This document shows, in pieces, positions 35,715-38,897 of a DNA stretch of 42,686 nucleotides (position 1 is its first letter; every line of letters starts with the position of its first letter). The DNA lies in the sequence record NC_047890.1; one strand, 5' to 3'. The DNA comes from Escherichia phage PGT2. A program made the position numbers and the translations under genes. The notes beneath the pieces were generated by a model, which made no database searches, had not been told where the DNA came from, and worked only from the letters and a program-made list of their open reading frames with translations.

Positions 35715-35743
35715 GGTGGGCTTCGGCCCACCTCTATTTTATT
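35715..35743 (+). terminator. Rho-independent terminator between the gp16-like gene and the tail fiber gene
   Basis: Perfect 7-bp stem ggtgggc / gcccacc with loop ttcg, then tctattttatt. Confidence 0.6.
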
Positions 35744-35753
35744 GGAGATTTTG

Positions 35754-38516
35754 ATGGCTATTACGTTTTATGCTACCAACAACTTCACTGGTGATGGTAC
35801 TACCGTAAACTGGAATATTAACTTCGCAGACGGTTATATCGACATCACCACCGTGAAGGCGCGGTATCTGGATAATACCGGGAGCTACGTTGACATCGCT
35901 ATTTCAAGCGTGGCAGGAAACGTAGTAACCATTTCCCCGGCTGTGGCGGACGGTCAGGAGTTCCAAATCTATCGTGATACAGAGAAGCGGTTCCCGCTGG
36001 TGGACTTCTCTGACGGTGCAATCCTCAACGAGACTAACCTTGACACGCTGGCTACTCAAGCTGTGATGGTGTCTGCTGAGGCATTCGACCAGTCTAACAA
36101 CGGTGTGCGTATCGCAGGTGATTCCTTGGTTGTTGCACAGGGTATCGACGCCAAGGCACAGGAAGCTCTGGACAACTCCGAGGCTGCTGTAGCTACAGCG
36201 AACGGTATCGACGGTAAAGCGCAGACGGCATTGAATACCGCCGCCGCCGCTGTCGCCACGGCTAATGCTGCCACATCTACTGCTGCTGGTGCTGTATCTA
36301 CGGCCAACACCGCACTGTCTACTGCCCACGATGCCGCCGATGACGCAGCTACCGCTATCACTACCGCTAACGGCGCTGTGATTACGGCCAATGCTGCAAC
36401 CACTACGGCCAACGCCGCTAGTGCTGCCGCCTCTGCTGCAACGACTACTGCGAACAGTGCTGCAAACGACGCTGCTACTGCTGTGTCTACTGCGGGTACG
36501 GCCTTGTCTACTGCGAACACCGCATCTACCAACGCCTCTACCGCTGTGTCCACGGCTAACGGCGCTAAGGCTACTGCTGAGGGTATCGAGGCTAAAGCGG
36601 ATTCTGCTTTGGCAGCCTCTGCTACCGCTGTGTCCACAGCTAACTCAGCCGAGGCTACGGCCAACGCTATCGACGGTAAGGCTACGGACGCATTAGACAC
36701 TGCCGACTCCGCTGTGGCTACGGCTAACGCTGCTGTTTCTACGGCTAACTCTGCTACTGCTACGGCTAATGCTGCCTCTTCTACTGCGAGTTCGGCTGCC
36801 TCTGACGCCAGTACCGCCTTGAGCACAGCTAATGCTATTGACGCAAAGGCACAGACTGCTTTGGATAATACCACGGCTCTGGATGCGGCCACCATGAAGA
36901 AAGCCGCCAACTTATCTGATATTGCGGATAAGGCGGCTGCATGGCTTAACGTCCGTCCTATTGGCTCCACGCCATTGGCAGGCGACCCGGTAGGGGATTA
37001 CGATGCTGTTACTAAGCGTTGGGTAGAGAACCTGATTAACACAGGTACTGTCGGTCCAACCATGAACGGGGTGATGAACTTCGGCGTCGGTGACTTCCAT
37101 CTCCGGGATAGCCGCGCGTACATCCAGCCTTATGAGGTTGTCTCTGACGGTCAGTTACTGAACCGCGCTGACTGGCCTGAACTTTGGGCCTACGCCCAAA
37201 TGCTGTCGCCTATAACGGATGCAGCTTGGTTGGCAGACCCTCTCAAGCGCGGCGCTTACTCTACCGGAAACGGAACCACTACCTTCCGAGTACCGGATAG
37301 GAACGGTGTTCAGTCAGGCTCTGTAAGGGCGCTTTTTGGGCGTGGTGACGGTGGGAACTCTTCTATCGGCAGTACCATCATGGAGTCCTTCGTACCGAAT
37401 ATCACGGCTACGTTAAATATGCACGGTGCTGGTCCCGCATCAGAACCTGCCGCTGGTACTAACGTGGCAGGATTTGGTGGTGCCTTGGTTGCTACGGGAG
37501 AGGCTCTCCCGAGATACCTGCGTGGGGTTACTCTGTTATCTGCTGGTGGTAACTCCTATGGTGGAGCTACCTTCGATGCCTCCCGTTCCAGTGCTGCTTA
37601 TGGTCGTGGTGGTCTGACTACGGATGAGGTTCTGCCGCGTAACTTCACTGGTGTATGGGTAATTCGTGCATCTGGCGGCTTCGTAGCGGCTAATACGCAG
37701 TGGCAGGTTATAAACCAAGATGCGACTAGGCCCGGTAACGGTACTGCCGTCTTAGGTGGTAATATTGTATCTGAGTACCGCGTTGGTGGTGCCTTGGAGG
37801 GTACAGCAAACTTCCGTATGGCGGGTACTATCGATGGTTCGTATGGCGCGCGCATTGCTGTTTATAATGCCACATCTTTAAATGGCGCCAGCTTCGATTT
37901 TACAGAGCACGGGAACATAGAGACTCCCCTTGGTAGGGCTATTGTTATAGGCAACTATGGTATAGGTTCGCAAGCAGATGCTATACCTACTTCGAGGGAT
38001 AACGCATTTATCTCTAACGCTGATAGTAATAGTTCTTGGTCTGCTTCTAACGGGGGTGGCTTTCAAATTACATATGCAGCTAACCGTATCGTCCAGTTCT
38101 GGGTAAGTCAAGGTGGTACTACGGCTTATTTCCGTGCTAATAGCACAGACAGTAACCCCCAACGACCGAAGTCTGCATCTCCTTGGGTCACACTCCAGAA
38201 TGCTGGTACTTCGGACGCTAATGTAAAAACCGTCCTCGGTGACTTAGACTTATCTATACCGTTGAGTAATATCAACGCACTGGAGTTTAAGAAATTCCGC
38301 TACAACAAGGATGGTGAGGATGGCCCGGTTCGACGGGGCATTATCGCGCAGCAGGCGCAGAATGTGGACCCGGAGTACGTACATTCTGCGGATAAGTCCG
38401 GGGTTATGACTCTTGATAGTAACCCGCTGCTGTTGGATGCTCTAGCTGCTGTCAAAGCACTATCTGCTAAAGTGGCCGCTCTGGAAGAGCGTATTGATGA
38501 ACTAACTTCTCAGTAA
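35754..38516 (+). CDS. Tail fiber protein: T7 gp17-like N-terminal adaptor, Ala/Thr/Ser-rich repeat shaft, C-terminal intramolecular chaperone domain
   Basis: N-terminus LVDFSDGAILNETNLDTLATQAVMVSAEA parallels T7 gp17 [29 protein letters not shown]; C-terminus GIIAQQAQ...LAAVKALSAKVAALEERIDELT is chaperone-like; ORF track start 35742 is a TTG. Confidence 0.8.
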   Translation: MAITFYATNNFTGDGTTVNWNINFADGYIDITTVKARYLDNTGSYVDIAISSVAGNVVTISPAVADGQEFQIYRDTEKRFPLVDFSDGAILNETNLDTLATQAVMVSAEAFDQSNNGVRIAGDSLVVAQGIDAKAQEALDNSEAAVATANGIDGKAQTALNTAAAAVATANAATSTAAGAVSTANTALSTAHDAADDAATAITTANGAVITANAATTTANAASAAASAATTTANSAANDAATAVSTAGTALSTANTASTNASTAVSTANGAKATAEGIEAKADSALAASATAVSTANSAEATANAIDGKATDALDTADSAVATANAAVSTANSATATANAASSTASSAASDASTALSTANAIDAKAQTALDNTTALDAATMKKAANLSDIADKAAAWLNVRPIGSTPLAGDPVGDYDAVTKRWVENLINTGTVGPTMNGVMNFGVGDFHLRDSRAYIQPYEVVSDGQLLNRADWPELWAYAQMLSPITDAAWLADPLKRGAYSTGNGTTTFRVPDRNGVQSGSVRALFGRGDGGNSSIGSTIMESFVPNITATLNMHGAGPASEPAAGTNVAGFGGALVATGEALPRYLRGVTLLSAGGNSYGGATFDASRSSAAYGRGGLTTDEVLPRNFTGVWVIRASGGFVAANTQWQVINQDATRPGNGTAVLGGNIVSEYRVGGALEGTANFRMAGTIDGSYGARIAVYNATSLNGASFDFTEHGNIETPLGRAIVIGNYGIGSQADAIPTSRDNAFISNADSNSSWSASNGGGFQITYAANRIVQFWVSQGGTTAYFRANSTDSNPQRPKSASPWVTLQNAGTSDANVKTVLGDLDLSIPLSNINALEFKKFRYNKDGEDGPVRRGIIAQQAQNVDPEYVHSADKSGVMTLDSNPLLLDALAAVKALSAKVAALEERIDELTSQ
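36100..36900. repeat. Imperfect tandem codon repeats (STAN/ATAN units) inside the tail fiber gene
   Basis: About 16 copies of nCyACnGCnAAy (encoding x-T-A-N) at roughly 7-, 11- and 14-residue spacing. Confidence 0.7.
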
Positions 38517-38525
38517 GGAGAGCCG

Positions 38526-38897
38526 ATGTCCGACTTCGAAGAAGAGGATGTCACACAGGAAGAGAACGGGTCTTCGGACCTGTTCAAACCCTTAGAGACT
38601 ATCCCCGGCGCTACCGCCAACCGGGACCAGATGGCAGAGCTACACCAGCTTATCTGCATCGCCCTGTCCGCACGTATCCGGGCAGGTATCTGGTCCTCCG
38701 GCGATATTGCCGCAGCTACAAAGTTCCTGAAGGACAACAACGTTACTGCCGATGTTGGCGACAACAAGGCACTCCAGAAACTACGCGATGAGATGGAAAC
38801 TAAGCAGAAGGCACGTCGTGAAGAACGGACGTATCTCTCTGAGCAAGAACTCGTCAAACTCGCAACGGAAGAACTGAATAACGAGATATGGCACTAA
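38526..38897 (+). CDS. Terminase small subunit (putative)
   Basis: Small acidic protein directly upstream of and overlapping the large terminase gene; strong SD aaggagag; assigned by synteny. Confidence 0.55.
   Translation: MSDFEEEDVTQEENGSSDLFKPLETIPGATANRDQMAELHQLICIALSARIRAGIWSSGDIAAATKFLKDNNVTADVGDNKALQKLRDEMETKQKARREERTYLSEQELVKLATEELNNEIWH

What the first reader, a model, noticed from the sequence alone, without database searches (positions are those of the whole stretch)
36100..36900. Tail fiber shaft built from about 16 imperfect x-T-A-N codon repeats
Between the conserved T7-like N-terminal adaptor and the C-terminal part, about 250 residues consist of Ala/Thr/Ser/Asn repeats at heptad-like spacing (7, 11 and 14 residues). 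The array could expand or contract by recombination, changing fiber length, and it creates a mirror-image Ala-rich ORF on the opposite strand that is an artifact.
Basis: seen in the sequence. Interest (0 to 1): 0.5.

Follow-up and report, generated by a model that had tools for sequence, protein, structure and literature searches.

The report
Alanine-zipper coiled-coil shaft of tail fiber
The repeat is the rod of a T7-like phage tail fiber, about 40 seven-residue units predicted to form a three-stranded alpha-helical coiled coil; its length differs among related phages in whole units, and it is an ordinary feature of phage fibers.

Summary
The window is very probably the coliphage PGT2 genome, a relative of phiKT. 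Its tail fiber gene (35754..38516, 920 aa) has a T7 gp17-type N-terminal adaptor. A 280-residue Ala/Thr/Ser/Asn-rich shaft follows (aa 121-400, 36114..36953). The C-terminal part resembles DT57C LtfA and ends in an S74 chaperone domain.

The shaft is 40 heptads in one unbroken register. Fifteen T-A-N motifs lie in it, spaced 7, 14, 21 or 28 residues apart, never 11. Periodicity of 3.5 residues, a helical AlphaFold2 model and a Pfam Alanine_zipper hit indicate an alpha-helical coiled coil. Homology of both flanks to solved chains deposited in three copies implies a parallel trimer of about 41-46 nm, against about 16 nm in T7.

Relatives have 23 to 40 units, always differing by whole heptads. 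PGT2 carries a two-heptad (42-bp) insertion absent from its three closest relatives compared at DNA level, in the only DNA-level tandem array.

The repeat is a protein-level pattern, not a homogenised DNA array, so rapid slippage is not supported.

The 304-aa antisense ORF is a by-product of composition: GC of Ala codons is self-complementary and the shaft has no Tyr.

This is a new member of a known kind, of modest interest.

The parts
35754..38516 (+). Tail fiber gene, 920 aa plus stop (T7 gp17 equivalent)
   Evidence: ORF. PHROG tail fiber families, best E 7e-245. 91% DNA identity to the phiKT tail fiber over the first 1602 bases. Synteny: SLT internal virion protein, fiber, DNA_Packaging_2, terminase.
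35754..36146 (+). N-terminal tail-attachment adaptor (aa 1-131), T7 gp17 type
   Evidence: Pfam PF03906 Phage_T7_tail, E 9e-12. Foldseek matches the model to T7 gp17 N-terminal structures 7boz, 7ey9 and 8dsp, E 1e-4 to 1e-5.
36114..36953 (+). Shaft, aa 121-400: 40 heptads in one register, pattern A-N-x-A-[VL]-x-T. Predicted parallel trimeric alanine-zipper coiled coil. The helix is predicted to begin at aa 93 (36030).
   Evidence: Heptad table. Period 3.5 power far above shuffles. AlphaFold2 helices 93-251 and 260-400, pLDDT mostly 74-88. Pfam PF11839 Alanine_zipper 24.2 bits against a cut-off of 23.1 for the shaft alone.
36195..36833 (+). Span holding the 15 T-A-N motifs of the shaft (aa 148-360)
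   Evidence: Motif positions and spacings.
36711..36784 (+). Only DNA-level tandem array: three 21-bp units (AVATANA / AVSTANS / ATATANA). A 42-bp PGT2-specific insertion aligns at about 36736..36777; its placement is ambiguous within the array.
   Evidence: TRF period 21, 3.1 copies, 81% matches. Gap in phiKT, L002 and L003.
36143..36878 (+). Five interspersed 'G/A-I-D/E-x-K-A-x-x-A-L' heptad pairs (aa 130, 151, 277, 305, 361). Ile sits at the core position with Asp and Lys at the flanking e and g positions. They may act as register-locking sites (inferred).
   Evidence: Direct repeat family D4 (36143, 36206, 36668, 36836) and D5 (36574). Heptad rows. Conserved in relatives.
36894..36953 (+). 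Junction 'MKKAANLSDIADKAAAWLNV' (aa 381-400), still helical. An in-phase joint to the distal module, shared with T5-like LtfA fibers.
   Evidence: Alignment to DT57C LtfA. AF2 helix runs to aa 400. The distance from the N-terminal anchor to the junction is constant modulo 7 in relatives.
36954..38210 (+). Distal part. aa 401-535 are conserved with phiKT and T5-like LtfA. aa 536-819 are the divergent receptor-recognition region.
   Evidence: phmmer E 2.9e-137 to PDB 8hqz_d. DNA matches to DT57C and other phages. Divergence from phiKT after aa ~535. PGT2 genome paper.
38211..38381 (+). Intramolecular chaperone domain (Peptidase_S74, aa 820-876)
   Evidence: Pfam PF13884, E 6.6e-9.
36056..36970 (-). 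Antisense 304-aa Ala-rich ORF: not a gene, a by-product of the shaft's composition
   Evidence: No Pfam or PHROG hit. All 107 sense Ala codons map to antisense Ala. Stops in that frame come only from Tyr codons or T|CA, and the stop-free gap 36058..37000 equals the Tyr-free shaft. All large genes are on the + strand. No minus-strand promoter-like site.

Best explanation
The region encodes the rod of the phage's tail fiber. Three parallel copies of aa ~93-400 are inferred to wind into an alpha-helical coiled coil. Its core would be almost entirely alanine: heptad position a is Ala in 35 of 40 units, and d is Ala in 30 and Ile in 6. Val or Leu at e widens the hydrophobic seam. Thr at g and Asn at b give the T-A-N signature around each core alanine.

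The rod is a rigid spacer of about 41-46 nm. It holds the LtfA-like receptor-binding module away from the tail-attached adaptor.

A coiled coil tolerates only insertions or deletions of whole heptads. Consistent with that, relatives differ by whole heptads. One such event, a gain of two heptads, is visible in this genome.

The opposite-strand ORF is a compositional mirror image, not a gene.

Shown here: the periodicity, the register, the helical prediction, homology of both flanks to chains deposited in three copies, and heptad-quantised length differences. Inferred: the parallel trimeric state of the shaft itself, its length in nm, and its spacer function.
For: - One register over 40 heptads, and all 14 T-A-N spacings multiples of 7.
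- Period 3.5 power of 4.7 (Ala) and 8.4 (A/I/L/V) against shuffle maxima of 1.9 and 2.1.
- AlphaFold2 monomer model helical for aa 93-251 and 260-400.
- Pfam Alanine_zipper above its curated cut-off for the shaft alone, and in many homologues.
- The N-terminal domain matches solved T7 gp17 N-terminal structures that list three fiber chains each.
- The C-terminal part matches DT57C LtfA, with 3 chains in 8hqz; that paper describes a three-helix coiled coil formed by the LtfA trimer.
- T7 gp17 is described in the literature as trimeric with an extensive coiled coil (PMC4819975). Its own rod reads as about 15 heptads.
- Among relatives, the distance from the N-terminal anchor to the NLSD junction is 164, 171, 178 (x3), 269 (x4) and 283 residues, all 3 mod 7 (10 of 12). 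For the GANSDITSL junction it is 138, 173, 187, 250 and 257, all 5 mod 7 (5 of 6).
- None of 94 homologues continues in another register.
- A 42-bp insertion in the window relative to three relatives.
Against: - No structure of this shaft or of a close homologue's shaft is solved. A PDB sequence search with the shaft gave only chance-level hits, E about 0.2, to coronavirus spike heptad repeats.
- The AlphaFold2 model is a monomer. It has a low-confidence break at aa 252-259 (block pLDDT 41) and pTM of 0.33.
- The Alanine_zipper hit is marginal: 24.2 against 23.1 bits. It was not reported when the whole protein was scanned at E <= 0.1.
- Oligomeric state and helix orientation were not modelled.
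- Thr, Ser and Asn have low helix propensity.
Confidence: 0.85

Rival explanations
1. The array is a hypermutable contingency locus. Slippage or unequal recombination between the repeats would frequently change fiber length within a phage population.
For: One 21-bp tandem array (36711..36784) exists, and it is exactly where PGT2 differs from three relatives by 42 bp. The motif CTACGGCTAA recurs at 21-bp spacing there.
Against: Mean identity between units is 46%, and adjacent units are no more alike than distant ones. Shared 12-mers (14 against 6.1 +/- 4.5) and the longest exact repeat (16 nt against a mean of 14.1) are within the codon-shuffle null. The three units of the array are only about 81% alike. 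phiKT, P0001, P0002 and P0003 all have the same length. The P0002 protein is identical on 8 contigs.
Confidence: 0.07
2. The shaft folds back on itself at about aa 252-259. It would then be a trimer of helical hairpins (a six-helix antiparallel bundle) about half as long.
For: The AlphaFold2 monomer model breaks the helix at 252-259. Alanine-rich faces can pack antiparallel (own knowledge: 'Alacoil' packing).
Against: The break has block pLDDT 41 and is expected when a single chain is modelled without its partners. The heptad register runs through it. There is no Pro or Gly cluster, and Gly248 is Asn in phiKT. A hairpin would put the distal module back at the adaptor. Relatives with 23-25 heptads have no matching hinge.
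Confidence: 0.05
3. The shaft is a beta-structured fiber (triple beta-helix or beta-spiral), as in many tailspikes and the adenovirus fiber.
For: The high Thr/Ser/Asn content is common in beta-rich phage fibers (own knowledge).
Against: The periodicity is 3.5, not 2. Ala is 38% of residues. There is no Pro and little Gly. AlphaFold2 predicts helix throughout. The shaft hits Alanine_zipper.
Confidence: 0.02
4. The 304-aa antisense ORF (36056..36970, minus strand) encodes a real overlapping protein.
For: It is the longest minus-strand ORF in the window.
Against: Its existence follows from the sense-strand composition: 107 of 107 Ala codons mirror to Ala, and it ends where Tyr or T|CA codons resume. 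It has no family hit. No Shine-Dalgarno motif lies upstream of its GTG (read). No minus-strand promoter-like site was found. Every large gene is on the + strand, as in T7-like phages (own knowledge).
Confidence: 0.02

Closest known systems
Bacteriophage T7 gp17 tail fiber (proximal half-fiber rod)
   Same: Same N-terminal tail-attachment domain (Pfam PF03906; Foldseek to 7boz, 8dsp and 7ey9). Same gene position. The adaptor is followed directly by an uninterrupted heptad rod. T7 gp17 is described as trimeric and extensively coiled-coil (PMC4819975).
   Different: The T7 rod is about 15 heptads (aa ~160-268) with a Phe/Trp/Ala pattern (FRNEAET...) and 11-27% Ala. Here there are 40 heptads with an almost pure alanine core and the T-A-N signature. 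The distal half is unrelated: here it is LtfA-like with an S74 chaperone.
Escherichia phage phiKT tail fiber (Ermolevavirus; AEZ65107)
   Same: Closest record. Residues 1-535 are nearly identical and use the same shaft pattern and register.
   Different: phiKT lacks 14 shaft residues (two heptads) and has a different receptor-recognition region after aa ~535. The two phages have different hosts (PMC5773715).
Pfam PF11839 Alanine_zipper (major outer membrane lipoprotein family)
   Same: Alanine-rich heptad coiled-coil pattern. The shaft alone scores 24.2 bits against a cut-off of 23.1, and homologues score up to 135 bits.
   Different: This is not a lipoprotein: it has no signal peptide or lipobox, and the pattern is embedded in a 920-aa phage fiber. 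The similarity is of repeat pattern, not demonstrated common descent. The match is marginal and absent from the whole-protein scan.
DT57C LtfA lateral tail fiber (PDB 8hqz)
   Same: The distal two thirds (aa 313-919) align at E 2.9e-137, including the NLSD junction. LtfA is a trimer whose proximal part forms a three-helix coiled coil (PMC10713586).
   Different: LtfA attaches to a siphovirus tail through a different N-terminus. Its proximal Ala/Glu/Ser-rich coiled coil is a different repeat, aligned only at noise level (first domain).
T4 fibritin (gpwac) and P22 gp26 tail needle (own knowledge, not tested here)
   Same: Trimeric parallel coiled-coil phage fibers. Among T4-type phages, fibritin's coiled-coil part varies in length.
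   Different: Fibritin's coiled coil is broken into segments by loops, whereas here there is no interruption over 40 heptads. Neither protein shares sequence with this shaft.

Membership tests
T7 gp17-type tail fiber | N-terminal Phage_T7_tail attachment domain | tested here: met
   Pfam E 9e-12, aa 1-131. Foldseek to T7 gp17 N-terminal structures.
T7 gp17-type tail fiber | Gene lies after the internal virion proteins and before the DNA packaging genes in a T7-like genome | tested here: met
   A 1400-aa SLT-containing protein lies upstream; DNA_Packaging_2 and terminase lie downstream. T7 layout.
T7 gp17-type tail fiber | Alpha-helical coiled-coil rod following the adaptor | tested here: met
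   By prediction only: heptad register, period 3.5, AF2 helix 93-400.
T7 gp17-type tail fiber | Homotrimer, chains parallel | not testable with these tools
   Inferred from solved homologues of both flanks that list three chains each. No multimer modelling was available.
Pfam PF11839 Alanine_zipper | Score at or above the curated gathering cut-off (23.1 bits) | tested here: inconclusive
   Shaft alone: 24.2 bits, E 4.1e-5, 6 stretches. Not reported for the whole protein at E <= 0.1.
Pfam PF11839 Alanine_zipper | Outer membrane lipoprotein context (signal peptide with lipobox, small protein) | tested here: not met
   The protein starts MAITFYATNN, has no lipobox and is a 920-aa phage fiber.
Fibers with a C-terminal intramolecular chaperone (Peptidase_S74) | S74 domain near the C-terminus | tested here: met
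   PF13884, E 6.6e-9, aa 820-876.
Hypervariable DNA tandem-repeat (contingency) locus | Units highly similar at the DNA level, above what the protein sequence requires | tested here: not met
   46% mean unit identity. Codon-shuffle null p = 0.07 and 0.19. TRF finds only 3 units.
Hypervariable DNA tandem-repeat (contingency) locus | Length polymorphism within a population | not testable with these tools
   No reads available. Indirectly, P0002 is identical on 8 contigs and four close relatives share one length.

The most novel reading that the evidence does not exclude
The shaft may be a heptad-quantised, phase-preserving spacer. Its low-complexity GCN-rich coding and in-phase junction motifs (NLSD, GANSDITSL) would let phages change rod length and swap distal receptor-binding modules by recombination at any 21-bp offset without breaking the coiled coil. 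The roughly doubled length in the phiKT/PGT2 clade (38-40 heptads against a family mode of 20-22) might come from an old duplication of about 22 heptads. It could then be an adaptation to reach through the O-antigen layer these phages use as receptor.
Probability: 0.2. Interest if true: 0.4.

Novelty: new member of a known kind. Interest (0 to 1): 0.25.

Why it matters
The finding gives a sequence-level rule for this fiber family: one unbroken heptad register from the adaptor to the distal junction, with length changing only in units of seven residues. That rule is practical for engineering fibers, for example when choosing fusion points or altering rod length, and for annotating such low-complexity regions. 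It also explains a long spurious antisense ORF that gene callers may report. It does not reveal a new mechanism.

Tried and rejected
- tblastn of aa 1-400 against phage records aligned at most aa 1-157, apparently because the low-complexity filter hides the shaft. Relatives had to be compared through protein searches instead.
- A PDB sequence search with the shaft alone gave only E about 0.2 hits to coronavirus spike heptad repeats, which is chance similarity between coiled coils.
- Literature searches found nothing for 'alanine zipper' plus 'tail fiber', or for 'alanine-rich' plus 'tail fiber' plus 'coiled-coil'. The fibritin evolution paper (PMC545706) is not held.
- A dN/dS-type test of the antisense ORF was considered and dropped. 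In that frame the wobble positions of both strands coincide, so it cannot discriminate (derived).
- An internal large duplication was tested. Identity at an offset of 154 aa is 43% against about 35% background, with a best local match of 25 of 35. That is about 2 sd by my estimate, too weak to claim.
- A single-chain pseudo-trimer AlphaFold2 trick was considered and not run. An antiparallel result would be uninformative.
- Asn-at-core ('N@d') layers as in trimeric autotransporter adhesins were considered. They were rejected because Asn falls at position b next to the core Ala, not in the core.
Full report
**What the window is.** The window is 42,686 bases, the same length as the published genome of Escherichia phage PGT2. 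That paper reports high DNA relatedness to phiKT and receptor-recognition domains related to T5-like lateral fibers (PMC5773715). The closest record in the phage collection is phiKT (Ermolevavirus, Autographiviridae): 94.7% identity over 76% of the first 25 kb, and 91% over the first 1602 bases of the fiber gene. PGT2 itself was not among the database hits, so the identification rests on length and relatedness.

**The gene.** ORF 35742..38516 (+) is the tail fiber; the likely start is the ATG at 35754, as annotated in phiKT.
- Pfam finds Phage_T7_tail at aa 1-131 (E 9e-12) and Peptidase_S74 at aa 820-876 (E 6.6e-9).
- PHROGs gives tail fiber families, best E 7e-245.
- Residues 313-919 align to DT57C LtfA, PDB 8hqz chain d, at E 2.9e-137.
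- Neighbours are an SLT-containing 1400-aa internal virion protein upstream and the packaging genes downstream.

**Checking the observation.** Residues 121-380 are 73% Ala, Thr, Ser and Asn. T-A-N occurs 15 times in the shaft, and every spacing is a multiple of seven (7, 14, 21, 28).
- In rows of seven, aa 121-400 hold a single register for 40 rows. Position 1 is Ala in 35 of 40, position 4 is Ala in 30 and Ile in 6, position 5 is mostly Leu or Val, position 7 is Thr in 22 and Lys in 6, and position 2 is Asn in 15.
- Power at period 3.5 is 4.7 for Ala and 8.4 for A/I/L/V. The maxima in 2000 shuffles were 1.9 and 2.1.
- The pattern is real, sits at the stated coordinates and is far beyond chance.

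**What it is.** The two most conserved positions are spaced 3 and 4 residues apart, as coiled-coil positions a and d are. That makes T-A-N the g-a-b positions around a core alanine. In the five 'I-D-x-K' heptads the assignment gives Ile at d with Asp at e and Lys at g, a canonical arrangement. This is my reading.
- AlphaFold2 on an alignment of 40 homologues predicts helix for aa 93-251 and 260-400, with pLDDT mostly 74-88. The only break is a low-confidence one, expected when a single chain is modelled alone.
- The shaft alone passes the Pfam Alanine_zipper cut-off narrowly, 24.2 against 23.1 bits. Many homologues pass it clearly.
- The N-terminal domain superposes on solved T7 gp17 N-terminal structures. 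[quoted passage not shown]
- If both ends are trimeric and lie at opposite ends of the chain, the helices between them must be parallel and three-stranded. This step is inferred, not modelled.
- At about 0.148 nm per residue (textbook value for coiled coils, own knowledge), 280-308 residues give 41-46 nm.
- The T7 rod reads as about 15 heptads with a different Phe/Ala pattern. Steven et al. 1988 measured it at about 16 nm (own knowledge of that paper, cited in PMC4819975).

**Length variation.** phiKT lacks 14 shaft residues. At the DNA level, PGT2 has 42 extra bases relative to phiKT and to two metagenomic relatives with the same gene order, L002 and L003. The extra bases lie inside the only tandem array that TRF reports (36711..36784, period 21), where 'GCT ACG GCT AAY' stands three times at 21-bp spacing. 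With three relatives sharing the short form, a gain in the PGT2 lineage is the simpler reading.
- In relatives with the NLSD junction, the distance from a fixed N-terminal anchor to the junction is 164, 171, 178 (three proteins), 269 (four) and 283 (the window). All are 3 mod 7, in 10 of 12 proteins.
- For relatives with the GANSDITSL junction, 5 of 6 distances are 5 mod 7.
- In 94 homologues carrying the N-terminal anchor, the in-register run has a mode of 20-22 heptads. The window, at 40, is at the top, and none continues in a second register.

**Limits on the 'recombining array' idea.** The 21-bp units are on average 46% identical, and neighbours are no more alike than distant units.
- The number of shared 12-mers is 14, against 6.1 +/- 4.5 in the null. 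The longest exact repeat is 16 nt, against a mean of 14.1. Both fall within a null that shuffles synonymous codons while keeping the protein (p = 0.07 and 0.19).
- The repeat is therefore maintained at the protein level.
- The four closest relatives share one length, and one variant is identical on 8 contigs.
- Length changes happen and are filtered to whole heptads. Nothing indicates a fast, slippage-prone locus. Population polymorphism could not be tested.

**The antisense ORF.** In the frame of ORF 36056..36970 (-), the wobble positions of both strands coincide, and the GC of every sense Ala codon reads as GC again. All 107 sense Ala codons give antisense Ala.
- Stops in that frame arise only from sense Tyr codons or from a T-ending codon followed by CA.
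- The stop-free gap, 36058..37000, is exactly the Tyr-free shaft.
- The ORF has no family hit, no Shine-Dalgarno motif upstream and no minus-strand promoter-like site.
- Every large gene is on the + strand. The ORF is a by-product.

**Distribution and novelty.** An exhaustive search with the shaft found 447 cluster representatives at E <= 0.001. Most matches start near residue 100-145, the position seen in the T7-type fibers. Some lie deep inside very large proteins. In one of these, P0125, blocks of the same repeat alternate with non-repeat segments, and five of the six scanned hit Alanine_zipper. The module is widespread. No paper in the held library describes it for tail fibers, but a coiled-coil rod after the T7-type adaptor is textbook. 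I rate it a new member of a known kind, of modest interest.

Noticed in passing
window 1-42686: The window length equals the published genome length of Escherichia phage PGT2 (42,686 bp with 260-bp terminal repeats, MG201401). It is 92-97% identical to phiKT over most regions. PGT2 itself did not appear among the database hits.
   Followed up: partly
window 35715-35742: A terminator-like hairpin, GGTGGGCTTCGGCCCACC followed by TCTATTTTAT, lies in the 41-base gap between the internal virion protein gene and the tail fiber gene, on the + strand.
   Followed up: no
window 36939-37358 (fiber aa ~395-535): This segment is 74-83% identical in DNA to fiber genes of unrelated phages: T5-like DT57C, DT571/2 and HMD-P3, Salmonella phages Kenya-K36/K42, and phages FEC19, YD-2008.s and PaulFeyerabend. 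This is a mosaic module shared across phage families. After aa ~535 PGT2 and phiKT diverge.
   Followed up: partly
window 36192-36296 vs 36654-36758 (aa 147-181 vs 301-335): There is a weak sign of an old internal duplication of about 22 heptads. Identity at an offset of 154 residues is 43% against about 35% background, with a best local match of 25 of 35. Twenty-two heptads is also the commonest shaft length in the family. Not significant on its own.
   Followed up: partly
P0125 (2222 aa); also P0126, P0127, P0176: Very large proteins from metagenomes carry several blocks of the same xxTANxA heptad repeat. In P0125 they alternate with non-repeat segments that end in motifs such as 'KIDNLEIGGRN'. 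Apart from Alanine_zipper, Pfam found no family in them. Their nature and hosts are unknown.
   Followed up: no
window 38526-38897: The 123-aa ORF after the fiber gene corresponds to the gene called DNA_Packaging_2 (small terminase type) in the metagenomic relatives. In phiKT it is annotated only as a hypothetical protein.
   Followed up: no
L001 2931-3041 (phiKT ORF23): phiKT carries an annotated 36-aa 'hypothetical membrane fusion protein' that overlaps the end of the internal virion protein gene and the start of the fiber gene. It looks like an over-annotation. The equivalent stretch in the window was not examined.
   Followed up: no
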